Assembly: GCA_051362555.1 (NCBI GenBank)
Contig: CM120642.1
Coordinates: 29,636,001-29,700,000 of the forward strand
Reading direction: 5' to 3'
DNA length: 64,000 bases
From: Lingula anatina
Taxonomy: Eukaryota; Animalia; Brachiopoda
Position numbers and translations under genes: made by a program. Below the pieces are notes generated by a model. That model made no database searches, had not been told where the DNA came from, and saw only the letters and a list, made by a program, of their open reading frames with translations. Below are positions 3,950-58,615 of the stretch, in pieces. Position 1 is the first letter of the stretch; each line of letters opens with the position of its first letter.

Positions 3950-4757
3950 CTAAAACGTATCATGATAATTATAGCCTATAGCATTCTGACTATCCTTGGA
4001 AGGTGTCATGCCTAGCTGCATCAGAGGTGCTGTTCCTGTAATAAAGACTACGAAGTATGAACGCAAAGAAGAGATTTCTGATACAGGCTCGAAAGTAAAA
4101 TTCCTATATTTAAAAGCATTTCTGTATTTATTTAATATGATAAGAGCAATGAGTAACTCACATTATTAAACTATGTATTTAAATCAAAATGCTTCGAATT
4201 TTGCTGAAATAAACAGCGTTTGGATTTGTAGCTTAAGACAAAAGGGGGTGAAAGACATACCTACTACAAAAAAGTTGAATTCGGCATACATGTCACCCTT
4301 GCGGAGAACACATTTCCCAATCTTTTGATCACATTCAGATGCATCCCTGGCATTAGGATGGACATGGCCACTTTGGCATCTGGTTTTATTGTTACTGTCA
4401 CACGCTAAAGCCAGATTTTCGTTGGCGTGCGTGTGATCGTTAAGACATGAGGAAGGTGTACTACCTGAAGAAAAAACGGTACGTGAAGGCGCCTCCTGGT
4501 AATGTGTTCATTAGTGCAGCTTAATCTGTCAAATGGTAAGTTAATTTAACAACAGATGCATATATTGAGTTTTGATCAGTTAATCAGATTTGGTTAAATC
4601 TGTTGAATGGAAGTGCTGATAATTTGCGAACAAAGAAAATTAATATCATAAGAGAATTTTTTTCGCTTTCATGAAAAATATTAGTAAATGGGCCATGTAT
4701 TATCAAATGTCAAAAAAAAAAAATGCGTACAAGTACAAAAATTGTATATTTACCCAT
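3950..4757 (-). CDS. Small Cys/His-repeat protein, paralog A (97 aa, putatively N-myristoylated), family unassigned
   Basis: Exons 4757-4754 (ATG G|gtaaat), 4464-4261 (204 nt), 4035-3950. Protein: MGSTPSSCLNDHTHANENLALACDSNNKTRCQSGHVHPNARDASECDQKIGKCVLRKGDMYAEFNFFVVGTAPLMQLGMTPSKDSQNAIGYNYDTF*. Canonical splice sites, a TATA/CCAAT-like region upstream, and the same gene structure as three paralogs in this window. Confidence 0.82.
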
Positions 4758-4868: not shown

Positions 4869-5540
4869 ATTAAGTTCCCGAGATTAAGTCATACTTATTT
4901 TTGTCACCGTGTTGCTTACGTATGTATGACTTCATACTTATTTTTGTCGCTGCTTTTTTGTTGCTGACTTATTTGTGTAACGCTGAGTGCTGTATCTGTC
5001 CGATGAGTGTTCCTTATCTGTGGAGGTATAGGCTATATGAATAAAGAGATCTGAATCTGTTAACATGTAACACCAAACTCTTGAAATGTGTTTTTTTCTT
5101 TAAAATTGGCAGTCATGTAACGAAACAAATGTAGAAATCTGGATGAGGTCATCTCGTCGATTTATTGACCCAAGGCCTGTATAACTAAGCTATGCCTGTT
5201 AAGATACTTCATAGTATATTACCACTTCATGGGATAAGCATTACTACTTCGTGATAGAAGGTATACCATTTTTGTATGAAGTTATTTTCAATTCCGTTCA
5301 CATTTATCACTGGATTAATCACACTGTATTAAACTATAGAACAATTATAGGCTTTGGTTTCAGTCAATTTGTTGTTTTGCTAGACTCTAGAACAGTGAAC
5401 GCTGCACAACATGAGAAAATAATGTTATTAATTTCGGATGGCATTTTAGCAGATGGATATGGCAAATGATACTTTTTACAATGAACGAAAATGCATTTGT
5501 TAGACATTTTAAAAAGATTATTAGGCGTAAGCTTGTATTA

Positions 5541-5748
5541 GACCCCATTCCCAGAGAGTAGATCGATCCAACTAGATCGACCTTACTCCCTGGGGGTTCA
5601 CGCTAAATAGCTGTCAGCCGAGCGGGCGCGAAAGTTAATTACCCCCTTACAGCTTGTTGTAGGCGGGACGGACATTTAAGCCGTATTATCTGACAGTAAT
5701 CTAGTGAGACTCCCCACAGATCGATCTAAAATCTATGGGAATGAGCCC
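5541..5748. mobile_element. PIF/Harbinger (Tourist-like) MITE, copy 1
   Basis: About 210-bp element with imperfect TIRs (gaccccattcccagaga..tagatcgatc / gatcgatctaaaatctatgggaatgagccc) and a TTA target-site duplication. Four near-identical copies occur in this window. Confidence 0.85.
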
Positions 5749-11848: not shown

Positions 11849-12749
11849 TTAGTAGTCTACCGCATTCCCAGAAGACCCGGTTAACATTCGTCCGAATCCT
11901 GTCGTGGTATTAGGAGACCTTTCTGTAATATTAAGAACAGAATATGGGTAAAAGAAAGCACTTTTTGATACAGGGTTGAGAGAAAGATATTTATTCAAGT
12001 GAGATTGGTCGGTAACTTTTGTGCTCTATCTAAAGTTAAAGAATGTAAGGGATAACTCACTTAACTAAATTTAACATTGAATCATAAATATCCTTTGGAT
12101 TTTTATCTTAAGACATATGCACAATATAAGTAAAAACAAATAAATACAACATACATAAATTTACAATAAACTCAATGAAAAGAAGGATCGAAAGACATAC
12201 CGAATGAATATACGTTACCATCGATTCTTTGAGCTCCATTTTGGAGTGTTGCTTTTCCAATTCTATCATCGCATTCGGTAACTTCCTTGCCATTGGCATG
12301 CTTATGACCAGAACTGCATGTGGTTGAATTTCTACCGTCACACGCTGCAGCTTCACTTTCACTATTGTGTTTGTGTCCATTGGAACATGTGGAATAAGAA
12401 CCACCTGCAAAGACGTAACGGTAAAAGAAGCCGCATTCTGCTAATGAGTTAATTCAAATTCAAAGTGCAGGTAAATCGATCAGATCATACCTCAATCTAA
12501 TTAAGATAAATCCATTAGGTTATGATTTCTTAATTTGATTCAGTTAAATCAATTTAATGGAAGTGCTAATAATTTGAAAACAAAGGGCGTATATGAACAA
12601 AAAAATACACTTACTTTCCAAAATAAGTAGATAAATAAATAAACACATAAATAATAATTATAATAATAATAATAATAATGATGATGATGATGATGATGAT
12701 GATGAATATACCGTCATATCAAATGGTAAAAAATCGTATATGTACCCAT
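11849..12749 (-). CDS. Small Cys/His-repeat protein, paralog B (93 aa, putatively N-myristoylated), family unassigned
   Basis: Exons 12749-12746 (ATG G|gtacat), 12404-12201 (204 nt; donor GTATGTCTTT identical to paralog A), 11922-11849. Protein: MGGSYSTCSNGHKHNSESEAAACDGRNSTTCSSGHKHANGKEVTECDDRIGKATLQNGAQRIDGNVYSFERSPNTTTGFGRMLTGSSGNAVDY*. Confidence 0.84.
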
Positions 12750-24234: not shown

Positions 24235-24449
24235 CACCCCATTTCCATAGATTAGATCGACCTACTTTAGATCGACCTAACTCCCTGGGGGTTCACGCTA
24301 AATAGCTGTCAGCCGGGCGGACACGAAAGTTAATTATCCCCTTACAGCTTGTAGTAGGCGGGACGGACATTTAAGTCGGATTATCTGAAAGTAATCTAGT
24401 GAGACTCCCCGCGGGGATAGATCGATCTAAAATCTATGGGAATAGAGCC
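24235..24449. mobile_element. PIF/Harbinger (Tourist-like) MITE, copy 2
   Basis: Same sequence as 5541-5748, flanked by ATA...ATA. Confidence 0.85.
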
Positions 24450-32071: not shown

Positions 32072-32197
32072 TTTTACTTTAAAACACCTTTTTTCATATT
32101 TTGATAAAATGCGTTACGGTATTGATGTCTATCCGGAAGTAATGAACAATAGAACACCAGGATGATGGTGGGGTATTCACTATAATAGTTTATTTAA

Positions 32198-32412
32198 GGC
32201 TGTATTCCCAGAGCTTTTAGATCGATCTATCCCCGCGGGGAGTCTCACTAGATTACTGTCAGATAATGCGGTTTAAATGTCCGTCTCGCCTACTACAAGC
32301 TGTAAGGGGGTAATTAACTTTCGTGTCCGCCCGGCTGACAGCTTTTGAGCGTGAACCCCCAGTGAGATAGGTCGATCTAAAGTAGATCGATCTTATCTCT
32401 GGAAATGGGGTC
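32198..32412. mobile_element. PIF/Harbinger (Tourist-like) MITE, copy 3 (opposite orientation)
   Basis: Reverse complement of copies 1 and 2, with a TAA TSD. Confidence 0.85.
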
Positions 32413-33956
32413 TAAGGTTTCATCACATGCTGGTTATTTCGGTACCGATAGCCCGAATATTCTACAATTCGCACCGCTCTAGTCGCCGACTAACCCCGAG
32501 CCCATTTTGGAATTGACCGCTAACTGTAGCTCATACAGCATAAGACGTGTTTTGTTTTTTTATGAAAAAAAGTTTTCAAAACATTATATAATGTTTTTCC
32601 AGAATGTTATAAAAACGCTGATAAAACTCCACAAATTAACTTTAAAATAAAATTTTGTAGAAACGGTCTTCGATTCTTTCTACAAATTACTGTAATGTTT
32701 TTTTATTATCTGGGACACCATTTTGCATGAGTTAAAAACACCCATAACGTTACCTTAAAGCAATAATAACTCTTCCTTTGAGATTCAAAATTCCGCATGA
32801 AATACATTGTAAACAACACATGGAAATATATTCTATTGTATTTTACCACTAAAACGGCCGTTATTGTAGTAAAACTAAAATCTGTGCTTGTCAATGGGGC
32901 TTTCGATGCTTTTCTTCCCAGTCATCAAGGCATTCGTTGCTAATGACGTAATGGTGTCACGCGGATTCGCGCGTTCATTCGAGACCAAAATAACATGGCG
33001 CCAAACGCATTAATGCGGACGCAGACGTAAGTTGCGAGTTTTTGTACAGTGCGTCGGATAACGAAAAGCCCAGAATGGCACACATTGTGGATATAAATGC
33101 ATTTTTAACAAAAAGACGAATATATCTCATGAATCTTATATAGTGTTGTTGTTGTCTGCTTTTCCCGCGGTTTTAAGTAGGTCACCAGTGACTTTGCAAT
33201 GTCAGAGAGAGCTCCGTCAGTTAAAATCTCTTAAGAGATTTTAACAAAAAACCGTACATTTAGGAAAAAAACCCTGGATTAACTTTGAATGCAGGAATGG
33301 GGTCGTTGACCATTGGTAAGTACGGGAAAATTGCCGTTTTTTCCAGGCAAATCCAATTTTTGGCCAAAACGAAGAGTTATTATGACTTTAATTTAAGGAG
33401 GCCCTCTCATATTAGCTTTTTTTTGCGATCTGCGGAGATTTCGCGCATGAGTAGTTTTTTACGATAGCGGCTAATTATAAAAATATAACATGCAATAAAA
33501 TACGTAATTTATCCTTTTAAGAAATCTGTATGAAATATTTAATGTTATTTTGGTCGAAGCGCTACGAATATGTCAACAATGCGTTGCGTATCAGTGAACG
33601 CTTGGTCTTTTACGACGTAAAGTACCCACTTGCGCCTTTGTTTACAAATGCCGCAATGTACGAAATTACGCGAAGAAGGGATTGAAAAGAGCGTTTTAGT
33701 AAGGCTTGTATAGCAGTGACATAATCTTATCTCACAAAAAAACATTCACAAGGGCTTGCATTTTGACCACAAAGTGTATTGCTAAGATTTGTCATATGGT
33801 TACGATGTGTGTAGCAAGACATTGTCTTCTTCAGCATTGGTTTCCGATCACCCAGGTTGCGGTGATTTGTATGCTGAAAACAGTTCTCTTTTCTCTCACA
33901 ATTAGTTAAAATAATTAGACTCATGGCGTTTTTATTATTATTATTATTTATTATTA

Positions 33957-41395: not shown

Positions 41396-42087
41396 CTAAA
41401 ACTGTAAAGCTCTGGAGGGGTCCCAGTTCTTGAATGCTTGCTGAACGTTGGGTGTTTTACCTGAATACAATTATATTAAAATTGTTCACACAGCTAAATG
41501 AAGTGAAACAGAAAGAACTCTTTGAATTATTCGGTACGTTATGAAGACATTGTAAGCAGTGTTGACCATATCATTATTTTTGTTGACCTTTTTATTATCT
41601 TTGTTTTTGTTATCATTTTCCAAATTAGTTGCCGAAATATCCTGATAACCATATTTAAAGTACTTGAAAATATTTGAAATGTTAATTAATTTACTGGAGC
41701 AGCATTATATTCAAGGAAAAGTATCGTTATTAATCTATTTTCTAGTAAACAAATCACCAAGAAAACAGTACCAACCAACGGCAATCTCATTATAATCGAC
41801 TTTTGCGTTTTTGCCCAGTGACACACAACGTCTTCCTTGACGTTCATCACACAAAGAAGCTTCATCGCCATTTATATGCTTGTGACCCGAGTTACAATTA
41901 GTCGCCCTTCGGTTGTTGCACCTAACTGCATCAGCCTCATTAGGATGGGTATGTCCATTGTCGCAGACAGATTCACTTTGTCCTACATGTATAATAAATT
42001 TGATCATGACAGACGCCGTTTGTCACGTAGAGGCTGCTTCACTATTCCCTTAACGGTTGAAATACCCCTTTCTATATTGTTTACAAT

Positions 42088-43089: not shown

Positions 43090-43435
43090 TAAGAAATCAA
43101 GTTTGTACAACTATCAAGCCATTTTGTGAGAAGTAATTAAGTTTCTACAATTATTAATTTTTTGAATAAGTAATCATGACTGTATAATTTTTATATAAAT
43201 CTTTGTGTGAAGAGTAATCAAGTTTGTAGAACTATCAAGCCTTTTTGTGACGAGTAAATTTGTGAAATTATCATAAGTCATATTTCGTTGACAGTGGGGC
43301 TCGAGTCCTTTGTTATTTGTTTTAGCTTGTTTATCAATTATCAATTTATTTATCAATGCAATTATCAAGCCTTTTCGGATAAGTAATCAAGTTTGTACAA
43401 TTATCATGCTTCATTTTTGATAAGTCATATTTCGT
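43090..43435. repeat. Degenerate minisatellite downstream of the Bf-like stop codon
   Basis: Recurrent unit AAGTAATCAAGTTTGTACAA(C/T)TATCAAGCC at about 43092, 43131, 43212 and 43381. Confidence 0.6.
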
Positions 43436-44058
43436 CGAGTTTGGTTCGAGTCCAAAGTTTATACTCAAACCCATGTCATTATCTGTCCATCGATTAATAA
43501 ATATTTGTTCTCTATTAACCAATCTCGTATGAGTTATTTAGTACTAGTAGTTGTCGATTGCGACAATCTCATCTGTTGCAATACGTAAAAGAAGTTGGGT
43601 GAGAAGTTAGCTGTGTCAGCACTACATACTTAGCGCTGCTGCATTGCTTAATATTTGGTGAGTCCATTGGTTTGCTCTTTTTGCGCTGATCCCGGTCTGA
43701 TAATGACAGATCAAGGGCCGTCCTGTAAGTCTCAATATTTCGGAAACGTTTGCACAGAAGAGTTACAAATTGTGCATTTCAAAGTAGCTCGTTCTATAAC
43801 GCGCGAAATGTTGCTGTACGCCAGAATATACATGTAGAAACTGCTGCCCAGCCTACCGTATTTGGGCAGAGGATGTCACGCCCAGGGCATTCATACTAGT
43901 ACGTTACCATCGAGAGACAGAACCTGATCTTTCGGTTATGCTGCTACAACTAAACAAACCCTTTTAGTCTAAGAAAAATGGCTTGACCCTTCACGTCTTC
44001 TTGATGTTGCACACTGTGCAATGCGTTCTCTGTGTCTTACACGAGAATAAACACAGGG

Positions 44059-45484
44059 TTACCCTGTCTTAGACCTTGTTATATGATCCTGAATCCATGA
44101 CATTAAATGATCCAACTTGGTAAATAAAATGTTACTGTCACCATGTCTGCAGTCTGTGCTCATGCTGTGGGCAGCGACACCTGGAGTGAAAATTATTTAT
44201 TAGAAGAAAAACGCTATATTTGAATAGGAATTTTTAATTTGAACTCTTGTGAATTCAAAGGCCGCAGTCTAATCGTGCGACGTTATAAATTTTGAAAAAT
44301 GTACTAAATAAGGCATTTAAAGTTGTGGCGTGCAGTTGTGGCGTGTTTCTCTATAAACAGAATAAACGCTATTTTGTATAATTAAAAGTGTTAGTTTGCA
44401 CCAAAGATTAGGGATCTGGTTAGATGCCATTTCATTATAAACAGCCATTTAAATTTATCACACTGGGCATAAAAATAATTTCTGAAAAAGTAAAATGAAA
44501 ATCCTTACCGATTTGTATCCAGATTTCCTCTCTGGATTCCTTCTTCATGAGCCTCCTGAACAGAGCTCCATCACCTCGCTGATGACAGCCACTCTTTACT
44601 GCACTGGTAGAGTTAAAGGCAACTGGGTATGAAAATAAAAAAGTAATAAGTACAAATAAAACAAAATATTGAACCTCTTTTTTCGCCTTTCGGACATCGC
44701 AACTGTGCTTTTTACAAATGTGCCATTGTGAAATTAAATTTATGACGGTATGGTATGTGTGCAATTTCTTTATGTCTATTGGTAAAATTAAACTTTGACA
44801 GAAAAAGTCATACCTGCGCAAAGTTCGTGTTCATTTGTTGGTTGACGTCTTGATTGACAGTCATCTGGTGGGCGAATTTTCTGTAATTTCTGCACGGAAG
44901 AAAAGGAAAGAAGTAGAAACTTGTATTCAGTTTTAAATTTTCATTTCAAATCCCCATGCAAACACTTTTGGCTACCGATGTCCTGCTTTTTCAGTTCTGT
45001 TGAAGACAGAATTTTTAAACTTATAAGGACAATTGCTTATTAACCAGAATATCAGCTGTAGTGATTCTACTCATTCTAGCACAGTATAAACAAGAGTTTC
45101 ATTACCTGTATTATTCTGGGTTGATCAGCAGTCTGCCGCCAGGTGGCACTTACACCAAGATGGTCCATTCCTGGTCTCCGGAATGTGGTTAAATCGTCAT
45201 AGTCAAATAGGCTTAAATCTTTTAATATAAAATGACAATAAAGATGGAAAAATACATATCTTAAGCATTGGAAACAAACATATTTTCTCTAAATGAAAGA
45301 CCTGGGTTAAAATACACTTTCCTATCAGACTGAGAGAATCCAAAAACAACGACCACCAGTATTTGAATTACCATCGTTTTCCAAAATTAAATTATAATAG
45401 AAGCTTCAAAAATAAGTAACAATACTTAAAGAAAGAAAGAAAGAAAGAAAGAAAGAAGGAGTTAAGGAAAGAAAAATATTTTGG

Positions 45485-45537
<53 letters not shown>

Positions 45538-48500
45538 TTAGTAAATCAAAAACAAAAATTTCAAATAAAAGTTATATTTTTTCTTGTTTTAATACCTAGC
45601 GTATTGGGCAGGCAGATCTTCCTCACGTAGGGACTGAACGAGACTCTTTCTGCCAGATACCACAGAGCAATGTTGTAACCAGGGGCAGCACTCGTCTGGT
45701 TCTGGTCGTATGTGTGAACGTGTAATACTTCAACTTTATGTGAACCTAAGACAAATTAAAGACAGACTTCTGCCGAGAAACCGAGAACATAAATTCATAA
45801 CGAACGCATTATCGGAAAAGCAAGGAAATGCATTATTATTGGATTTAATACATGTCGTGTAAAAACGAAATGAGGACCGAAGACATGTTTTAAATAAGCT
45901 TAAACAATATAATGGATATATTCAATAAAAGCCACTTAATAATCAGCAGTTAAACAGATTTTCTTTATATTGCTAGTTTCGCTTATTTTGAACTATCAAA
46001 ACAAATTACCTATTTTCACGTACGCCTTCCCCACCGCTCGCCCTTCCAGACAACTGGCGCTGCTGAGTACCCAGTACTCGTCCACCAGCGTCCCCGTGCA
46101 CACAAACGGGATCTGAAACCATTAACATTCCAAAAACATGCATATTTTCACAGTGAAGGTCGGCCATTTAATGATTCATAACTGATAGAGCGTCAGTATA
46201 TCGCCTTATACAGGGGTATAATGATAATAACAATAAAATATGTATAATAATAAAAATAAATTAAATCGAAAAAAGAAGAGTTTTAGGTTGATTTTGTACA
46301 AAAAGCTTTCATTAAGCCAAAACATTATAACACTGCATAACACTATGCAGTACAGAAATACAAGCAATGTATTAGGCTTGTCAATTTGTAAACTGGTTGG
46401 TTATCAACAAATACCAATGAGGATTGAATAGAAAGGGAACTAAAAGTGTATCAAAATAGAAGAATTAAAATAAACAAATTGTTTCAACATAAAATGTTAA
46501 AAAAGACTCATAATTATGTGCAAATTAGGGCTCGTTTGAGAATTACTATGCCCAGGTTACCATACCTGATTTCTCTCTATATGCTCTGTCTCGCTGGAGA
46601 ATATGCCAACCACCCACGGCCACGTCTGTTCACTGGAACTCTCGCTGTGGTCAATCTTATATAAGTCAGTCTCTGCCATTGTTTTTCCACAGCCAGAGTA
46701 ATCTGTGGACAATTAAACCATTAAACACGACAAAATTAAATATTTATCTAGATTCGATGACACGTCATAGAGACGACTGATACAACAGAAGTTAAATAAA
46801 ATTCTGATAGTCAAAATGATGGGCAAGATGGGCAAGACTTTTAGGCTGTATTCCCAGAGCTTTTAGATCGATCTATCCCCGCGGGGAGTCTCACTAGATT
46901 ACTGTCAGATAATCCGGCTTAAATGTCCGTCCCGCCTACTACAAGCTGTAAGGGGATAATTAACTTTCGTGTCCGCTCGGCTGACAGCTATTCAGCGTGA
47001 ACCCCCAGGGAGTTGGGTCGATCTAAAGTAGATCGATCTAATCTCTGGAAATAGGGTCTTAAAATTATCAAAAAAGCATGTCTAAAATAGGAATGCCTCC
47101 CTTACAAACGGATACACATTTACGTACCAATGTTCATATTATTCATTGCGTCCCTCAGAGTCCGTAGTTCAAAATAATCTCTTAGAATAAACACATTGTT
47201 TTCTGTTGGCCTGGACACAAGTTGTCGTAAAGTCTGGTTGTGGGCAGATGCGGTAAACCCAAAAGTGATAATGCGAACGTCGTGTCGATTCTTGAGTTCT
47301 TCCGCTTTTTGTATATATTGATCACCTAATATGTGATTTCCTAAATAAAAGAAAATGTGGTTATCAATTAATAAATAACATGGTCATCCTTCTCATCCAA
47401 TGCGGTAAAGAGAAACGTGCTTTCTTTTTAAGAGGCGTATGACGCATTCAATGTGTTACGCATCGAGGACAACGTGCATTGAAAACTAAGTACTATTGTA
47501 TAGCCTACATCACTGCATAGCTTTAACTTAAAATGCATTGAATATCATTATTGTATTTAAATACAACAAAGTTATGGGTTTACCGTCAGTAAATAAAATC
47601 ACTGTTTTAGTAGAATTGGCAGACCCTCGTTTTTTAACCGCCTTTGGGATCATCACGTCACTTAGGTATTCAAGGGCAACGTCGACGCCAACACCGTCAT
47701 CACCTGCAGATTAGAAGATAATGGTGTGATCAAATTTATTGTCTGAATAAAGGCAACGGTGGTAGTTTTACCAGTTGTTATTTCATAAACATTTAACTTG
47801 AAAAATAATTAAATGGGGAAAACCTGTATCCAAACAGGTGAGAATAAGTGAGTTTACATGTATCCAATAGTTATCGTCTTCATTAGATTTTTGTATAAAA
47901 GCTTCGTCTTCAGAAGTCCGCTGTAAACGAGAACTCCCACCTGTATATAGTATGTTATCCAAAGCATCAAGTATCTCCTGTTCACTTGAATGATCGTAGC
48001 TATGAAAGCCGCGTTCTTTCTCTAGTGCCGGGGTTGTAAAGTCAGCGTCTAGGGTTATGGCACCAAACTGGGTCCCGGATGACTGGGATGATACCCCAAA
48101 CTGGATCAGAAAATTGTGATAAATCGATCAGTCGAAACACAAGAAATTGCTTTCTTCTGTCTTTGATGGTGTTTTTGATATTTGTATTATGATCAAAACG
48201 CCATTGCATATTAACAATAAATTAAACGTGGTTTACTTTAAGCAGCGTAAAAAGGGTGACTAGGCCCAAACGCGCATGGTTTTTTAATTGAAAATATAAG
48301 TTTGGTTATTCAGCACTATTCTCTATTTTCCATCCATTAAACTACTCCGAAATCAGATTAAAACGTGACCATACATGTATAATATACCTCATAAATAACA
48401 TGCTTTGCAAATTCCAAACCACGACCAAAAGAAACGTTCCCAATGAAACGCGTGGAGTCGAATATTAAGAAGACGTCTAGGCCATTGGACGCCAAACGGT

Positions 48501-51500
48501 CTCCGTCCTGTCTCGCCACTGCTGTTTTACTCGATGAAGAGGAAAGAGACAGCGCATCTGTGACTTGTTTTAGCCGTTTGGCGATTTCTGCAGTATCTTC
48601 AAATGTTTCTGGGTCTGACATCAAACGATGAATATAGAAATTTTGTTACTGAAAAATCTTGGCCGCTTAGCTAACAGTGAAATAAATTGCGTTCTTAGTA
48701 AAAAAAAAACAATAATAAAATAAAAATAATAAAATTAAGTGCGGTATAAACCTTTTGTTGGTTTTTTAAATGAATAATATAATTTACCTTACGGATTTTC
48801 CAAACTGGCATTTCTACCACTCTATACATGTATGAAAGTGAAATCAAGCTATTCACTATTCTAACAGAAATATTCCATACATTACACAGCACCTGGACTA
48901 TGAGACAAATGAACACAGTGGTGATCTACCTTCACAACGAGGCTGGTCACCTGACCATTCCCCAGTGGAGAGACACTTTCTTTCCTCCGACCCGAGAAGA
49001 ACGTGTCCAGGTTTGCAGCTAAATCGTACAGAATCGCCCACATTGTAGCCGTGGCCATTCTTGTAACCGTTCAGTGGAACAACGGGAACTGGACAATGGG
49101 TATCTAAAAGGCAAGGAACCTTTCTAGAGACAGTATTTACAATAGAGACAAAAAAATACTACCTGGATATAAATGTCATCTTTTTTATTTTTACATGTAC
49201 AGTATCCCTTACGAAAATTTCCTATAGGATTTCCTATAGGATTTCCTATAAGATTTCCTATAGGATCCTATAAGATTTCCTATAGGATTTCCTATAGGAT
49301 CCTATAGGAATTCCTATAGGATCCTATAGGAAATTGTCCCTTTTTCCTATAGGATCCTATAGGAAATCTTATAGGATCCTATAGGAAATCTTATAGGATC
49401 CTATAGGAAATCCTATAGGATCCTATAGGAAATCCTATAGGATCCTATAGGAAATCTTATAGGATCCTATAGAAAATCCTATAGGATCCTATAGGAAATC
49501 TTATAGGATCCTATAGGAAATCTTATAGGATCCTATAGGAAATCTTATAGGATCCTATAGGAAATCTTATAGGAACCTATAGAAATTCATATTAACTGCT
49601 TTGAATATTTTTACAGCTTTTTATATATTGTTGGATCTTTGGCAAAATTGGTAATAGGCACTGGTCCCTCAAAACAAAAGAGAATATCATGTTTACATTC
49701 TTTATTCAATATGTATAAATGTATGTACATATTCCACAGTATGGTATGCATCCAGCTTACTAGAGAATTGTTTCATAGATTTTTGCAAAGTTAATGGTGT
49801 TGCTACTGCTTTTTAATTATAAGTTCTAAAAGTTATCACAAGTATCCAATATGTCTTGTCAAGCTGTGGCGTCACTGTCTTTTTCTTGTGTGAGTTCGAA
49901 CTCCTGCCAGAATAAGTGGCTAAAACCTCCCTTGGCCAGACCGTGTCCATTGTCAGCATACTGCTTCAGTCACTTAATAATTGAAGAATTTCAGACAAAA
50001 GTCTTTTGCACATTGTTCAATTTTATTGTGATAAGTCTTTTGCACATTGTTCAACTTTACTGTGATAACCTTCTTAACCTCCGTCTGAGTTGCGTTGAAC
50101 CATTTGCAGACGTATTCTGAAAGAAAGACATTGTGAATTTCAATTAATTGTACATGTCTACAAAAATGCAAAATCATGAAGGAAAAAATTTCTGAAAACA
50201 ATAATAATCATTGCACCAATTCTATTTTGAGCAATTCATAGCCTTTATTAGTTAACTGAATATTTTTCAAAGACAAGGTATTAAAGCTAGATAATTTGTA
50301 AAAAAAAAAATATAAAGAACATGAACATATTTTATAGGACCAAGTCCACAGGAACAATCAGAAACGAATTTTAAAATGCAGAAATCCACAGTGGAGAAAA
50401 CTCTACTCTGGTTAAATATGCAATTGGGCCATTACAAAGCTGCCAGGGCCAAAAAAGTCCCAAAAACTCATAGAAAATTCATTTCCAAGGGTAAACGGTA
50501 ATTCCCTATTCTCACCAGTCTTTGCTTGACCTAAATCATCAGTCCAAACCACAAAAAAGCAACCCCCAAATTAAATTTTATAGCTTTTATGTAAGCAAAA
50601 TGGCCAGATTTTCACAATGCACATTTCATTTCCATTATGTATAGGTTAGCAAAAAATATTTTTAAACAAACTATGGTGTTTACCTTACATTAAGGGTTGA
50701 AAAGAAATTAAAGGGAAAGAAAACTTGGCAAATAAACGATCCTGAAGAATGTGTGAGGTAATGAAATTTGCCCTGACAGCCCCTCTAACATGTTAATTGT
50801 ATGTTATTTATTAGCATGGGTCTTCCTCAGTTATATATCATGATGGTCCCTTGGAGGCAGTTGTGGATAACATTAAATAGATAATTTTTAATAAATCACA
50901 AACCAAATGTTAAATGAAATGTAAAGTTGTTTTAGATTCAACTGCATTTAAAGAAATATGAGCAATTGATCACAGTTTTATAAGAAATAAAGAGACTAAA
51001 CAATGATTGCATTATGTATCCTTGTTTCTTCATTATAAATTATAACTTGTTCAATGTAATATAGATATGTTGTTTACAAGGTAAACTACAAATTAGATCA
51101 AATAATTATCTCATTTTCAATTTGATTAGATGCCCAAATGATCCAATGCATTACTGTAATACATACCTTCCTCAATCAGATTCTTCTACACTCTGTACCC
51201 TTCCCCTATGCTCTTGAATTTAAACTGTCTTGATAGCTGTATACTCATTTGGTGCTAGTCTCATATAAACAAAGACTTAGACAGGATACCACACATCTGA
51301 TAATATCTAATAGGCAGTTACTGTTACCAAGGAGTTATAACTCCTTGCTGTTACTAGTGTAACAATAGCTACAGGAGTAGTGACCTAATAATAGGTGCCA
51401 GGCTAACAAAAGAAATTCACAGTTGTTGAATCTGTGGTTATGGCTGACATCAGTTGACTGTTAAACCTTACAAGTGATTGAGCATGGTTTATAATAAAAT

Positions 51501-53954
51501 GTGTCTTTATAAACATATTAATTTATCCTCGTTTCCCATCCTTTATGAGGGACAGTACTATACCCATGCTGTTTGCACTTATGCTTTTACATTATATTTT
51601 ATATATTAGGCAGAATTGCACTTTCACTTTTTAACACAGCCAAGGTCAGGTAAAATCTGATTAGATGAGGTTGACTTTCAATATAATAGAAGAAATATGA
51701 AGTAAGTAAATATTATGATCACACAAAAAGTAAAAATACATTATATACTGATAATAAGACCAGTTTCATTATTTTTCATTTAACCCGGCTTTATAAAAAA
51801 TCACTGGATGAATTAGCATAGGATTTCCTATAGAAATTCCTATAGGATCCTATAGGAATTTTAGAATGGTCTGAACATAAATTAAAAATTAAAATTATAT
51901 AATGATATTTAGATTAGACTCATTATTTTTATTCAACCCGGCCTTATAAAAATTCCCTGTATGAATTAACATAGGATTTCCTATAGGTTCCTATAAAAAT
52001 TCCTATAAAATTTCCTATAGGATCCTATAGGAATTTTTATAATGGTCTGAACATAAATTAAAAATCAAAATCATATACTGATATTTAAACCAGATTCATT
52101 ATTTTTCATTCAACCTGGCCTTATAAAAATTCCTTATACATACACATTTATACATATTGAATAAAGAATGTAAACATGATATTATCTTTTGTTTTGAGGG
52201 GCCAGTGCTTATTACCAATTTTGCCAAAGATCCAACAATATATAAAAAGCTGTAAAAATATTCAAAGCAGTTAATATAAATTTCTATAGGTTCCTATAAG
52301 ATTTCCTATAGGATCCTATAAGATTTCCTATAGGATCCTATAGGAAATCCTATAGGAAATCCTATAGGATCCTATAAGATTTCCTATAGGATCCTATAAG
52401 ATTTCCTATAGGAATTTTTGTAATGGTCTGAACATAAATTTAAAAAATAATTTCAGCTTCAGTGATTTGGTACAAAATCATTCCTAATGATAAAATACTT
52501 CTCCATAGAAGATTACTTTACAAATGATCAATTTTTCAAGATTTCTTTAAAATATAAATTAAAGAATTTTTCTATAGAATCCTATAGAAGACTATAAGAT
52601 TGTGCATTACAAACAATAAAAAGCATTTTTACTTTAATAGTGATATATAATTGACAATTAAACTGATAAGATTGACTTATATCAAATATCTATTGTTTAG
52701 AATGATATTTGTTTATAAGTTATGCATTTTTCTCAAGATTTTAACTTACAACAATTTCCTATAGGATCCTATAGGAAATCCTATAGGAAAGGTGCCCTAT
52801 AGGATCCTATAAGATTTCCTATAGGATCCTATAGGAATCCTATAGGATCCTATAGGAAATTTTCGTAAGGGATGCACTCTATATCTTGAATCTTATTTCA
52901 GACAAAATTGAGCAAGAACAAGAAAAGAACACATACATGGTTTGCAGTAACAAATGAAAATAAAAATAAAAATTTAAAAATGCAAACAAAAAGTACGTCA
53001 ACGTACTCCCCGTATCACAGGTGGCGGTGGTGCCGCTCCACCTGCCGTTAGCCTGACACGTTCTCATCACGGAGCCCAGGTGTCGGAACCCGCTGAAGCA
53101 AGTAAACAGCACGCTACCTCCCAGGTGGAACGCACTGCCAATTCTACGTCCATTCTCTGGCCATCGTGGGTCCGGACACCGTACAGCTGAATGGTGAATG
53201 TGTAATTAGTCTTTAAAATCTGTATAATAAAAGCACTTGTTCTCTGCCTACCTTTATTTTTATCTATTTTTTATATTCTTGAATTCAAACTACATGACAT
53301 AATGTACACGTATGTAAAGATAGTTTGGCTGGTTGCCCTTATCATGCTGAAAATTTATACTATATAGAGTAAGACCTACATTGACAGAAAAAAAATCAAT
53401 TTTCAAAATATATTGTGCGTATTATCCGAAATCAATTTAATTATCCGATGTCGGCAACTGTAACTTTTTTAATTGAAGCACCATAATGGTGAAATCGTGA
53501 GTATTTGTAATAATTCTATATATCAATTATAATTAACTCATTTTCATATAAAAGGGTTTTGAAGTACTAATCTTACGTCTACAGGCCGGTTCCCACCCAC
53601 TCCAGCCCTCATAAAACACGGAACACTCCCTGCTGCTGGGGCCGAAGATTTTAAAGCCGTGAGCACAGCGGTAGTGGACGATGTCGCCGGCCTGGAACGT
53701 GGGGCGGTCCTCCTCCAAGATGACACCGTCATATGGGGCTAGTGGCTGAGGACAGGTCCAGACTGGAATAAAATATCACAACTGTGGTGAAAATTTTAGC
53801 CTTTATTGTTATCCTTATTATTACCCTTTTGGCTAGCCACCGAATAAACTTAAGATTTTTTTTATTTCTCCTTAAGCAAATAACCAAATAAATTGATAAA
53901 TAAGTATATTCCACATTTATTAACCAAATAACGAAGAATTAGCTTTGGACACAC

Positions 53955-54020
<66 letters not shown>

Positions 54021-56549
54021 GGTGGAAAACGATTTTGTTTTGTCAAAAATTGTATATATGGCATTTAATAAACTGATTTTGTTTAATGTAAGAGGCTGAT
54101 CAAATAATAAATTTGAGTCAAAACTGACTGTATAAATAGATATGAGTATCGTCTTCTTACCTAAACAAGTGTGATATTTGAGCATATCATCCCACAATCC
54201 ACTTTTAAGACATGTAAACTCCACATTTTCCTCAAAAGTTGCGAAATAATATCCACGGTTACAAGCATACTTCATTGTTGATCCGGGTTGATAGATGCCG
54301 TCATGGGCATCGGGAACTTTTCTGCCGTTTTCTAACTCTCCAGGCTCTTCACAATATATCGGGGCTGGAATATAAACGTCATATTTTCAAAAAACTTAAA
54401 ATTTAAAAAGAAACTACGAATGCATTAATGGCACTATGAAATAGTCTAAATGTTTCAATGTTTCAATTGTTTCCCTTTTGTTTGCAATCAAGCATGGTGG
54501 TGAGCTACAGGTACATTTCGTCCTGGATTAATGTATAAAGAGGTAATAAAACGGATCCCAGAATTCACAGCATAACTAAAGCAATGCCTCACATAGTCCG
54601 CCTGAATAAAGCTGTTATTACCGAGGGCTGGTATATGCAGATCCAACCACACTACTAAGTCACCTGTGTCTCTCAGCAACTGCAATCTTAGATTTACCTG
54701 TGCATTTGGGCGGGGCCTGGTCCCAGTGTCCCCTGCCGACACACTTGATCTCCCCGGGGCCGGCCATCTCGTACCCTGAGTGGCACTCAAAGTGCAGCCT
54801 GCTCCCCATCACACAGCACGACCCGTACCTCTCGCCGTTAGCGATCTCCCCTGGGTCCACGCATGTTGGCTGAACTGTGGCGTATGGAATATATACTTAT
54901 TTGTTATTTTGGCACTTATGCCATTGCTTTTCATTCAGATATTTATTCCTTTAATTATATTTTTCAAATATAGGAAGAGATTTTGAATTAACAGATATAG
55001 AGAGATGAGCCAAAGAATCATTCATCTGAGAAGCATTAGCAATTCACTGCCTGAAAAAAAAAACTTGAATTAAAAAGAAAACAAAGACGCTTTTTTGGCA
55101 GACAAACATAAAAGCATATTTTTATGACTCAAAACTTCTCCAGTGCATTACTCCAATTGCTTAATGCCGACCATCTCTTTGTTGTATATACAAAGGTTTC
55201 CAGAAACTTAACATTACTTACTGATACACGATGGGTCTGAATGGCTCCATTTGAAATTCCTTCTGCATCTCCTTATTCTCCTCCCTTGGAGCACGTACCC
55301 CTCGTCGCACTTATAGATCAGCCTGCTCTTACGACCACGTCCCTCAATGCGGAATTGGCCATGCTGTATACTTTTTGGTGGAGGGCACACGTTGCCTGGA
55401 GAAGATGTAATACAGTGTGCAAATGCGCTGTATCACAACTAACACAATCGTATTGAGAAAAGAAAGCACTATTTACTCGTGGCTCCAAGTTTTCCTCAGC
55501 GCGTTTCTTTGCTGTAGATTGTTTGCAGCAGGGAGAATAAAGATAAAAAAGGAGCAAGATATTATAGAAATAAGAAAATAAAAATACAACCCATCCCTTT
55601 ACCGATTTAGCCTATTACTTCCAAAATGAATTACCTAAATTTTCGTTACTAAATGCCAAATGTTGTTTAATTTGTGATTTTATTCCGTGTTTAATGAGTT
55701 GTGAAAGTAATCGACTGCAGTCAGTTTTGATGGGATGGGTTATATAGTGGCGTATTCTCCGTCTTCGTCACAGGGCCAGTACGTACTGGTAGGACCTATG
55801 TTTTGAAAATCACTCTTCCTGCAGAGAGACTGGACAAGTGAAGAACATCAATTCAAGATCCTGCCATAAATTAAAGAATCTGTCAAACTGCCAACGGCGT
55901 ATGATTTACAAGGTACGTCTGACGAAAATATAAAGTGACATGCATACATGTACCTCGTCTGCGCGTGGAAGTCCATCCCTGCCTGCATTTGCTTGTGTGG
56001 GCGCTTTTTTGTGTGATCAGATGCATTTGTGCATGTATGTACGTACATGTATGTGTATCCTCTACCTGGGCCGCAGATTAAACATGTGCATTTTTTCTTG
56101 AACGCAAGAATCGTAGCATGAATAGAATAAGCCAGAGACTTATCTATGAATATCTAGTGAAAAATCAATCTGTGGCCCTGGTAGAGAGTAACGAGTGCTC
56201 GTGGATTCATTAGTATGCATCAGCGTGTACACGTTTGTGCATAAGTGCCAGTAAGTATACATTAGAGCACGAGAGCGTGCCCGAGCCTCACCCTCGCACC
56301 ACGGGTCCACTCCACTCCAAGTCCCGTTCATCATACACTGCCTGTAAGGCGTGCCTCTCAGCTGCAGTCCGCCCTCACATTCGAACTTCACCACTGTGCC
56401 TGGTGCGAAATCTTTTATCTCCATCTGGGAGTGAACGTGCCCGAAGAGATGCACGATGATATCAAATCTACTGCCTGGATTTCGTCTTGGTATGGGGCAA
56501 TTTTCTGAAAAGTACATCATTTGATTTTATTAAAGTATCATGTTGCCGC

Positions 56550-56582
<33 letters not shown>

Positions 56583-58615
56583 GCACGCACGCACACACAC
56601 ACACACACAAATGCACACACACAAATGCACACACACATTTGTTTTTCGTTCCTGGTGCTATCCTTTTTTCATTCTTTTAAACTTGGAATCGAAGAAAAAA
56701 TATTCTAGTCTGTAACTTGAAAAATTATTGATTGAGATGGGCCATATTCTTCTTATTTTATGAAAAAAATAATTAATTACACTTATAATTGAAATTGAAA
56801 TTTCAGAAAAATCTATTAGAAGGCACGTTACACAGCATTGGTTTGAAAGTATGTAAAAAGGCGGCGTTTCGTTGTCACGGAGCTCAAAAGGAAAAGTTTC
56901 GGACATCTAAATGGAGAATTTCAAATCAGTTCGTCACAGTCTTCATATTTATTTATACCATCTTTGGAGAAGTCTTCGCTTCATTAGATGCAAATGTACG
57001 GTAAATGGCATCCACATGAATCAACATTTAAGACAAATTTAGCGTATCACTCTATTTCCAACATTTGAAAAGGAACTTCAATGTCTTATTTCTGCGTAGT
57101 TCAAGCAGCACTTTCTCACACCACTTCATCCACGCCATCCCAATCATGCTAGTTCAGTTTGATATCTGCATTTCCGCATGTCTCACTGCTGAGTGCCAAG
57201 CACGTGTGGGAACACGCAAGGTCGTCACTACTGGCAAAACAGGACTACGGAAGTTTCTAAAATCGGTTTTAAGGCTGATTCAGATTAACAGATTGACACG
57301 CCTCCGGTCCCCTTGTTTTCCACGTGCTCTAAAAATAAATCACCAGATTTTTTGTTTTCTATTTAGCACCAGGAGATGGTGTGTCACAGATTGCATTCAG
57401 CGAGAGTCCATACGGAGTTGGATCGATCTACGGTTCCATTGGGAATGAGCCCTAAAGTCGTTATGGGACGCCGAGATTACAGTAGCATCCCATTACACAA
57501 CAATCATTCAATCCCCGGTTAAGTTAATTTGTCATCGTATTACTATGCTCTCCAGTAATGAAAGTCTTAACAGATTCTTATTTGAAAAAAGTTCCGGTTT
57601 GAACGAAGCTTAATAAGTTCTTACAAGCAGCTGCAAGAAATGCCATCTCAGACCCATGCTGGGGGCGGCTTTTTAAAACAAATTAGATTAAGACTGCAAA
57701 CTCACGAAAGAAGCGTAATTTGTTCACCGTCTTTCCAAGCACTTGTGTTACACTATACATGTTTTCGCGCTGAGCAGATGTGAAGCAGGCATCTCACTTC
57801 AACGCCCCTGCCTTTTTATAACTTGTCATATACAATGAAAAAATAATTGTGAATGCGCTTTCACGTGCTACCCTGCCCTCCTTTTCGGCTTTTGCACAAA
57901 TCTGACAAAAGTAAACGGGAAACGTTTTTATCACGTATCAATTTTAAGGAATAGACCCGCAAACGACCGTTAATCAAGCTGCTCCTGAAGTCGAACCCTC
58001 TCACCACCACCTCCACCGCCTACGTTATCAAGAAGCCTTTTTCGAACTCATAAATTATTTTAACAGACAGTGCGTGTTTTTTGTATATGAACCCGACTAA
58101 ATCTGCGAGATCTCTTGGGACTGTTTTAAATTTCAAAAGTATCTCTTTATACACAGCTCTCACCCCCACAACCTTTTTCGACCAAGTCAATCATAAACGC
58201 AGGAAATGTGTGGGAGTGTATGTGTGTGTGTGTGTGTGGGGGGGGGGGGGGATCCCCAGCCCCGTCGTTATTTTTTTTCTCTTTTTTTTCTGTTTCCTAT
58301 GCGCTTCATACAGAGAACGCAGTGTTGGTGATTGTTAGAACCAAGGCCACTAATTAGTAAAGGAGACGCTTATCATCTTATATTCTCAATAAATAAGTTT
58401 TTCATGTACAGAAAGGCTTCCTCTTTGAACCCACCCCAACATCTCCCACTTCTATCTTTTCTTCTAAGAGTGAAAAGACGCATAATATATTATATAAATT
58501 ACATCTGTATTTATTACTATCAAACGTTCTTACCCGCCTTGGTAGACGTCAACACTCCGAAAGCCGCAATCACCAGGCACAGAGCGTTCCGTCCAGTTAG
58601 CAGCGGTTGTCCCAT
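44059..58615 (-). CDS. CFB-like: Complement factor B/C2-like protein: signal peptide, 7 CCP, vWA, catalytically dead serine-protease-like domain; 19 coding exons, 974 aa
   Basis: Hand-spliced exons, all GT-AG with consistent phase: 58615-58534 (MGQPLLTGRNALCLVIAAFGVLTSTKA signal peptide). CCP exons: 56504-56292, 55395-55222, 54874-54698, 54364-54161, 53762-53577, 53186-53007, 49103-48930. vWA exons: 48614-48388 (LDVFLIFDS), 48100-47941, 47703-47584 (VILFTDG), 47340-47128. Protease-fold exons: 46702-46566 (CG...WPWVV), 46112-46010 (CTGTLVDEYWVLSSASC), 45745-45596 (NIAL...ICLP), 45218-45106, 44889-44814 (LCA), 44622-44509, 44180-44059 (FTKLDHLMSWI...TAA). Total 2925 nt with no internal stop. 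CCPn-vWA-SP is the defining Bf/C2 architecture. Confidence 0.92.
46844..47058. mobile_element. PIF/Harbinger (Tourist-like) MITE, copy 4, in an intron of the Bf-like gene
   Basis: Same family, TTA TSD; lies between the last vWA exon and the first protease-fold exon. Confidence 0.85.
49206..52871. mobile_element. About 3.7-kb foldback-type DNA transposon (CMC/EnSpm-like) with palindromic CCTATAGG arrays, in Bf-like intron 7
   Basis: TIRs CCCTTACGAAAATTTCCTATAGGA / TCCTATAGGAAATTTTCGTAAGGG with a 2-bp AT flank duplication. Subterminal arrays of CCTATAGGA(T/AAT); a further inverted block 49575-49730 vs 52140-52295; about 170-bp tandem units at 51730-52135. Confidence 0.8.

What the first reader, a model, noticed from the sequence alone, without database searches (positions are those of the whole stretch)
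44059..46702. Factor B/C2-like gene whose protease domain has lost the entire catalytic triad
Seen: the TAAHC motif reads SSASC (His57->Ser), DIAL reads NIAL (Asp102->Asn), and C-x-GDSGGPL reads CHQRGDGAL (Ser195 position is Gly). The frame, the structural Cys/Trp residues and all splice sites are intact over 19 exons. Established: Bf/C2 provide the catalytic subunit of C3 convertases through this triad. Inference: a maintained pseudoprotease, possibly a decoy, regulator, opsonin or matrix protein. I recall triad-deficient Bf-like sequences from other protostomes, so the class may not be new, but its role is open.
Basis: partly seen in the sequence, partly recalled or inferred. Interest (0 to 1): 0.75.

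Follow-up and report, generated by a model that had tools for sequence, protein, structure and literature searches.

The report
Catalytically dead brachiopod complement factor B
This is an intact, spliced complement factor B-like immune gene whose protein lacks both the protease's cutting residues and most of its magnesium docking site but keeps its likely C3-binding modules, so it likely acts as a non-cutting binder or decoy; cutting-deficient factor B copies are already known from spiders and clams.

Summary
A 19-exon minus-strand gene (58615-44059) encodes a 974-aa protein: 7 CCP, vWA, chymotrypsin-fold domain. It is nearly identical to RefSeq 'complement factor B-like' of Lingula anatina. 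His57 is Ser, Asp102 Asn, Ser195 Gly; oxyanion-hole and 214-216 residues are also gone, while all 8 conserved Cys remain. RNA reads support 11 of 11 junctions from exon 8 to 19; exonic differences give pN/pS about 0.15. Two corrections: exon 18 starts at 44622, and Asp102 loss is not fixed (17 of 19 reads of one run read Asp). The class is known: triad-less factor B is published for two spiders and a clam, and 27 of 131 aligned homologues (this one included) lack an intact triad. What is unusual is new here: the vWA MIDAS is also broken (3 of 5 ligands; 24 of the other 26 triad-broken rows keep all five), while the last two CCPs, which in human factor B dock on C3b, rank 8th of 70 in conservation against 62nd (vWA) and 68th (protease). 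Best reading: a secreted pseudoprotease that likely binds activated C3 through its CCPs as a decoy or adaptor. No binding or function was tested.

The parts
58534..58615 (-). Exon 1: start codon and predicted signal peptide (aa 1-27)
   Evidence: Hydrophobic N-terminus and in-frame GT donor in the model; inferred, not in P0001/P0003 and not tested with reads
53577..56504 (-). Exons 2-6: CCP1-CCP5, one module per phase-1 exon; CCP2 is cationic (net +10)
   Evidence: Pfam Sushi above cut-off for each exon; charge
53007..53186 (-). Exon 7: CCP6, equivalent of CCP2 of mammalian Bf/C2
   Evidence: Pfam Sushi; up to 61% identity to Bf homologues; aligns with the second CCP of a mammalian C2-type protein
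48930..49103 (-). Exon 8: CCP7, equivalent of CCP3 of mammalian Bf/C2
   Evidence: Pfam Sushi; up to 60% identity; CCP6-7 rank 8 of 70 in conservation
47128..48614 (-). Exons 9-12: linker helix, shortened scissile loop and vWA domain with degenerate MIDAS (D-T-F-V-D for D-S-S-T-D)
   Evidence: Pfam VWA on exon 12; alignment; RNA joints; model
48445..48462 (-). MIDAS DxSxS motif reading DSTRF
44059..46702 (-). Exons 13-19: chymotrypsin-fold pseudo-protease domain and stop codon
   Evidence: Z 24.1, rmsd 2.7, 218 aligned to plasmin
46053..46055 (-). His57 position, Ser (AGT)
45672..45674 (-). Asp102 position, Asn (AAC); Asp in 17 of 19 reads of run X7
44573..44575 (-). Ser195 position, Gly (GGT), the middle of an Arg-Gly-Asp triplet
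44509..44622 (-). Exon 18 with its read-supported acceptor
   Evidence: joint 44622-44814 in runs X7 and X4

Best explanation
A transcribed factor B/C2-family gene encoding a predicted secreted pseudoprotease that likely docks on activated C3 through its conserved CCP6-7 pair but would neither lock on through the magnesium site nor cut, and so likely works as a competitive decoy or adaptor of the brachiopod complement system. Shown: domain order, splicing of exons 8-19, loss of His57, Ser195, the 193-196 loop and 214-216, a MIDAS with 3 of 5 ligands changed, retention of the structural Cys. From established knowledge: human Bf first binds C3b without Mg through its CCPs, then through the MIDAS, and the MIDAS is the only anchor left to Bb. 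Inferred: secretion, C3 binding, competition with an active convertase, and that vWA and protease domains persist as a folded scaffold.
For: Of 37 protease-domain columns conserved in at least 80% of intact-triad rows, 26 are kept and 11 lost; 10 of the 11 lie at the active site (my count). MIDAS D-T-F-V-D; of 27 triad-broken rows among 131 complete rows, 24 keep D-S-S-T-D, 2 have one change, only this one has three. CCP6-7 median identity to active homologues 0.398 (rank 8 of 70) against vWA 0.261 (62) and protease 0.235 (68); residual +4.3 SD, the largest of 70. Among three copies (window, P0001, P0003) 6 of 409 CCP residues vary against 21 of 468 in vWA+protease, Fisher p 0.010. CCP2-3 form the extensive C3b interface and MIDAS chelation is pivotal for the convertase (PMC12847986, passages; PMC11868072, passages). 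C3, factor B and factor C are reported for brachiopods (bioRxiv 10.1101/2022.04.26.489627, passages citing Gerdol 2018).
Against: No binding was tested, and neither Lingula C3 nor an active Lingula Bf paralogue was seen: no genome is held, the window has no second Bf-like locus, and the 120 listed of 964 hits hold no Lingula entry (that search did not list P0001 either, so it is weak). CCP6-7 conservation could serve another ligand or packing against the linker helix and vWA. The contact residues on CCP6-7 were not mapped. The 70 rows are related, and the domain limits were taken from this protein. In humans the CCP-only contact is a first, weak step, so a MIDAS-less protein may compete poorly. 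Expression is low and uneven (about 10 reads deep in X7, 2 or fewer in X4 and X5, none on exons in X1), tissues unknown.
Confidence: 0.45

Rival explanations
1. Non-catalytic recognition or scaffold protein: the CCP array binds microbes or plasma lectins and assembles or opsonises, without regulating C3 directly.
For: Horseshoe crab C2/Bf binds plasma lectins (PMC3351276 passages; PMC4714745 discussion). Fish Ba binds LPS through CCP1 and kills bacteria (PMC11929084 abstract). CCP2 has net charge +10; 10 of 407 homologous CCPs reach that.
Against: The best-conserved modules are the two C3b-docking ones, not the N-terminal ones. Cationic CCPs also occur in intact-triad homologues. Not exclusive of the main reading.
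Confidence: 0.27
2. A duplicate in slow decay towards a CCP-only protein: vWA and protease domains are passengers kept only so that the protein folds and is secreted.
For: Long branch (1.7-2.1 changes per column); threefold higher variation in vWA+protease than in CCPs; the 102 position still varies.
Against: No stop or frameshift in three copies; pN/pS 0.15 over these very exons; all 8 conserved Cys kept; confident fold (mean pLDDT 82.9).
Confidence: 0.13
3. Co-option outside immunity, as an adhesion or matrix protein, possibly using the Arg-Gly-Asp at positions 194-196 as an integrin ligand.
For: RGD sits in the former catalytic loop and is present in all three copies; uneven expression between runs.
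Against: RGD is in none of the other aligned homologues at that site; the loop is modelled poorly (pLDDT 55) and normally lines a cleft; the MIDAS that adhesion vWA domains use is broken; a triplet arises easily by chance.
Confidence: 0.1
4. A protease with a non-canonical active site.
For: The fold and Cys pattern are kept; the possibility was raised for Lox-FB (PMC4714745).
Against: No Ser, Cys or Thr at 195 in either register; His57, Gly193, Asp194 and Ser214-Trp215-Gly216 all replaced.
Confidence: 0.03

Closest known systems
Lingula anatina 'complement factor B-like' XP_013415956.1 (P0001) and XP_013417483.1 (P0003)
   Same: 899 and 905 of 920 residues identical to the window's protein; same S/N/G and same MIDAS. 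Probably alleles of this gene.
   Different: They lack exon 1; UniRef labels them 'C3/C5 convertase', which the lost sites contradict.
[quoted passage not shown]
   Same: CCP-vWA-protease order; Lox-FB has Ser, Asn, Pro at the triad, the same first two as here.
   Different: They have two CCPs; Lox-FB keeps its MIDAS and Ser214. This protein has seven CCPs, a broken MIDAS and Ala214, and falls outside the short, mostly dead clade in both trees, although joining them is not rejected (AU p 0.18).
Seven-CCP factor B of Tachypleus (TtC2/Bf-2), Ammothea FB-1, Hasarius FB-1, Scolopendra FB-1
   Same: Seven CCPs, vWA, protease domain, about 970-1080 aa.
   Different: TtC2/Bf-2 is activated in a Mg-dependent way; this protein lacks the metal ligands and the triad. 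Their sequences were not compared by name here.
Human factor B and C2
   Same: All top Foldseek hits (E 1e-40 to 1e-32, about 21% identity).
   Different: Three CCPs, intact MIDAS, scissile Arg and triad.
Vertebrate pseudo-proteases with a chymotrypsin fold (haptoglobin, HGF/MSP beta chain, protein Z; recalled)
   Same: Dead protease domain kept as a binding scaffold; MSP beta chain is among the structural matches (Z 22.6).
   Different: Unrelated domain order and separate origins.

Membership tests
Bf/C2 protein family (by homology) | CCP repeats, then vWA, then chymotrypsin-type domain | tested here: met
Bf/C2 protein family (by homology) | Last two CCPs and linker helix homologous to those of Bf/C2 | tested here: met
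   (helix 417-432 of P0001)
Bf/C2 protein family (by homology) | Secreted (signal peptide) | tested here: inconclusive
   Hydrophobic exon 1 in the model; no predictor run, no reads
Active C3-convertase subunit | His57-Asp102-Ser195 triad | tested here: not met
   S/N/G (S/D/G in run X7)
Active C3-convertase subunit | MIDAS D-x-S-x-S...T...D | tested here: not met
   D-T-F-V-D
Active C3-convertase subunit | Scissile Arg before the vWA domain | tested here: inconclusive
   Consensus G-R aligns to G-D with Arg one residue later and a shorter loop; another Arg lies 5 residues upstream
Active C3-convertase subunit | Binds and cleaves C3 | not testable with these tools
   No Lingula C3 in hand; needs experiment
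Short two-CCP triad-less Bf type (Lox-FB, FB-3, clam Bf) | Two CCPs | tested here: not met
   Seven against two
Short two-CCP triad-less Bf type (Lox-FB, FB-3, clam Bf) | MIDAS kept | tested here: not met
Short two-CCP triad-less Bf type (Lox-FB, FB-3, clam Bf) | One clade with them | tested here: inconclusive
   Placed elsewhere in two quick trees on a long branch; AU p 0.182; the named spider and clam sequences were not identified among my rows
Pseudogene | Broken frame, no transcript or neutral change | tested here: not met

The most novel reading that the evidence does not exclude
A complement inhibitor made from the activating enzyme itself: a seven-CCP factor B that lost catalysis and its Mg lock independently of the known two-CCP forms, kept the C3b-docking CCP pair, and caps activated C3 to damp or redirect amplification in a lophotrochozoan. 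P0130, an unnamed triad-broken protein with the same conservation pattern, may mark a wider group.
Probability: 0.25. Interest if true: 0.7.

Novelty: new variant of a known kind. Interest (0 to 1): 0.38.

Why it matters
How invertebrate complement is kept in check, and what the many triad-less factor B copies do, is open: the 2016 Lox-FB paper says there was no experimental evidence on them. This protein separates the functions cleanly (no catalysis, no MIDAS, conserved docking CCPs), so it gives a direct test of a decoy role and a contrast to dead forms that keep the MIDAS. It also shows that database labels such as 'C3/C5 convertase' are wrong for part of the family: 27 of 131 aligned rows lack an intact triad. 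Without functional data it stays a sequence-level variant of a published class.

Tried and rejected
Alternative exons restoring the triad: none in six frames, no alternative joints in reads. Acceptors at 44598/44603 for exon 18: replaced by 44622. Whole-genome search for C3 and an active paralogue: no genome held. Word-based searches: one search found only P0001, one search found 2 of 7991 candidates, one search listed no Lingula protein among the best 120 of 964; none is evidence of absence. Second Bf-like gene in the window: none. No RNA holder was listed by index; raw-read runs under the same species label were laid instead. Read support for exons 1-7 could not be obtained, so that part rests on P0001/P0003 and splice signals. 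The careful tree did not finish; both trees are quick trees (5 rows dropped as truncated or duplicate; 37 chosen rows). The MIDAS Thr column was off by one and corrected; only one search is used for MIDAS counts. The model's closer match to C3b-bound than to free factor B was not used: domain packing in such a model is unreliable. No complex prediction was sent: no Lingula C3 was in hand. Gerdol et al. 2018 and Peng et al. 2019 are not held; either may already describe this gene or a non-catalytic role. Nine paper searches listed no paper on this protein; 'factor L' appears in PMC9835746 without a definition in the passages I saw. Earlier scan findings: none.

Full report
Observation. Exon limits chosen from AG/GT signals give 19 exons from 58615 to 44059 and one open frame. 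With the read-supported acceptor of exon 18 at 44622 the product is 974 aa. Pfam finds a Sushi/CCP module above cut-off in each of exons 2-8, VWA in exon 12 and weak Trypsin matches in exons 14 and 15. Exon 15 matches P0001, named 'complement factor B-like [Lingula anatina]', at 100%; over 920 residues the window differs from P0001 at 21 and from P0003 at 15 positions. I take the window to be this brachiopod gene; whether P0001 and P0003 are alleles or recent duplicates is not settled.

Transcription and selection. Four RNA runs were laid on 43200-49200. Run X7 covers the exons about 10 reads deep and shows all 11 joints from exon 8 to 19; X4 and X5 show a few reads, X1 none on exons. The output listed 40 of 199 letter differences, 30 of them in exons: 20 synonymous, 10 not, against 353 synonymous and 1177 other sites, pN/pS 0.15, binomial p 5e-7. 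One change is at the Asp102 codon: 17 of 19 X7 reads give Asp. No difference was listed at the His57 or Ser195 codons, although neighbouring sites in the same exons were listed; 159 weaker rows were not shown. So 'entire triad lost' is true for the window, P0001 and P0003, and two of three for the animal behind X7.

The dead site. HMMER alignments to enteropeptidase, elastase, prostasin and thrombin put SSASC on S/TAAHC and NIAL on DIAL. In the family alignment, of 37 protease columns conserved in at least 80% of intact rows, 26 are kept, including 8 of 8 Cys, and 11 are lost; ten of these are positions 54, 55, 57, 102, 193, 195, 196, 214, 215 and 216 (my count; chymotrypsin numbers from general knowledge). 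An AlphaFold2 model from 60 sequences has mean pLDDT 82.9, with the 191-197 loop at 55. Its best Foldseek matches are human factor B and C2; the protease domain matches plasmin and chymotrypsin at Z 23-24, rmsd 2.5-3. The fold is kept and catalysis is not credible.

How common. A search of 1.84 billion representatives with the vWA+protease part gave 579 hits, 150 listed; 67 of the 152 proteins then held had both domains by my filter, and I aligned 68 rows after adding four borderline ones and leaving out three fragments. Of 64 rows with all three columns filled, 23 lack H-D-S (P0001 and P0003 included): His lost in 21, Ser in 20, Asp in only 4, which fits Asp102 being the last to go here. With 72 more proteins, 27 of 131 complete rows are triad-broken. 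Named examples: Diadema (S/N/R), Acanthaster (S/D/T), Mercenaria (S/D/V), Amblyomma (S/D/S), Lineus longissimus (K/D/I, Q/D/A). In print, Lox-FB has S/N/P, and Hasarius FB-3 and Ruditapes Bf also lack the triad (PMC4714745: passages, section 12 and the first part of the discussion). The class is known and recurrent; at least 6 changes of state on a 37-row tree.

What is particular. First, the MIDAS reads D-T-F-V-D. Of the 27 triad-broken rows, 24 keep all five ligands and two have one change; Lox-FB keeps it too. Second, it has seven CCPs, like the long arthropod forms, not two. Both trees place it on a long branch among multi-CCP, mostly intact proteins, outside the well-supported short clade that holds most dead forms, but forcing it in is not rejected (AU p 0.18), so independent loss is likely, not shown. 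Third, conservation is lopsided: among 70 invertebrate rows its last two CCPs rank 8th, its vWA 62nd and its protease domain 68th in median identity to 48 intact proteins; the residual is +4.3 SD, the next being the unnamed, triad-broken P0130 at +3.6. Variation among the three copies points the same way (6 of 409 against 21 of 468, p 0.010). These rows are related and the test is rough.

Mechanism. In human factor B, CCP2-3 make the extensive first contact with C3b, the C3b C-terminus then chelates the MIDAS Mg, and that bond alone holds Bb after cleavage (PMC12847986 and PMC11868072, passages). A protein that keeps the first contact and has lost the lock and the catalytic site would bind activated C3 without making a convertase. 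That is my best reading (0.45): decoy or adaptor. A paper citing Gerdol 2018 reports C3, factor B and factor C in brachiopods (passages), and horseshoe crab factor C is itself a C3 convertase (PMC3351276, passages), so an active partner may exist, but I saw none directly. Rivals: lectin or microbe binding through the CCP array (0.27; abstract, 79), slow decay to a CCP-only protein (0.13), adhesion or matrix role with an RGD in the dead site, found in no other aligned homologue (0.10), and unusual catalysis (0.03).

Limits. No genome, no Lingula C3, no reads for exons 1-7, no functional data. Gerdol 2018, the Lingula immune survey, and Peng 2019 on mollusc Bf/C2 could not be read and may cover this gene or role. 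The tree figure among the supplements of PMC9835746 and the bioRxiv supplements were not seen and may name it; the protein sequences in its file 4 were cut short. Verdict: real, maintained, a new variant of a known kind; interest 0.38.

Noticed in passing
window 61778-61023, minus strand: Three small exons with AG/GT limits encode a 50-aa Lys/Ala-rich basic peptide resembling a histone H1 tail or protamine-like protein (resemblance recalled). Not searched.
   Followed up: partly
window 46841-47065; copies at 32197-32413, 24236-24449, 5540-5742: A roughly 215-bp interspersed repeat with inverted ends in intron 12, 89-95% alike between copies; it draws 400-1500 reads in all four RNA runs, from copies elsewhere. 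MITE-like by appearance.
   Followed up: partly
window 49220-49586, 52275-52414, 52757-52860: Arrays of a near-palindromic 11/22-bp unit in the 3.9-kb intron 7.
   Followed up: no
window 28567-28256, minus strand: Open frame that looks like the C-terminal part of a mariner-type transposase (motif recalled, not searched).
   Followed up: no
window 41738-42022, 12175-12453, 4187-4507, minus strand: Three related open frames with a repeated C-x2-G-H-x-H pattern, probably a dispersed repeat family.
   Followed up: no
P0023 and P0051 (Acanthaster planci): An intact and a triad-broken factor B-like protein with close accession numbers on a contig of the same length, suggesting linked active and dead paralogues.
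   Followed up: no
P0004 (Argiope bruennichi): Protein with four vWA domains and a protease domain with His and Ser kept, no CCPs, named 'collagen alpha-3(VI) like'; groups with arthropod-type factor B rows in the tree.
   Followed up: no
P0130 (unnamed): Multi-CCP triad-broken protein with the same pattern of conserved last CCPs and diverged vWA/protease, MIDAS kept; 30% identical to P0001; joins it in one tree with a long-branch warning.
   Followed up: partly
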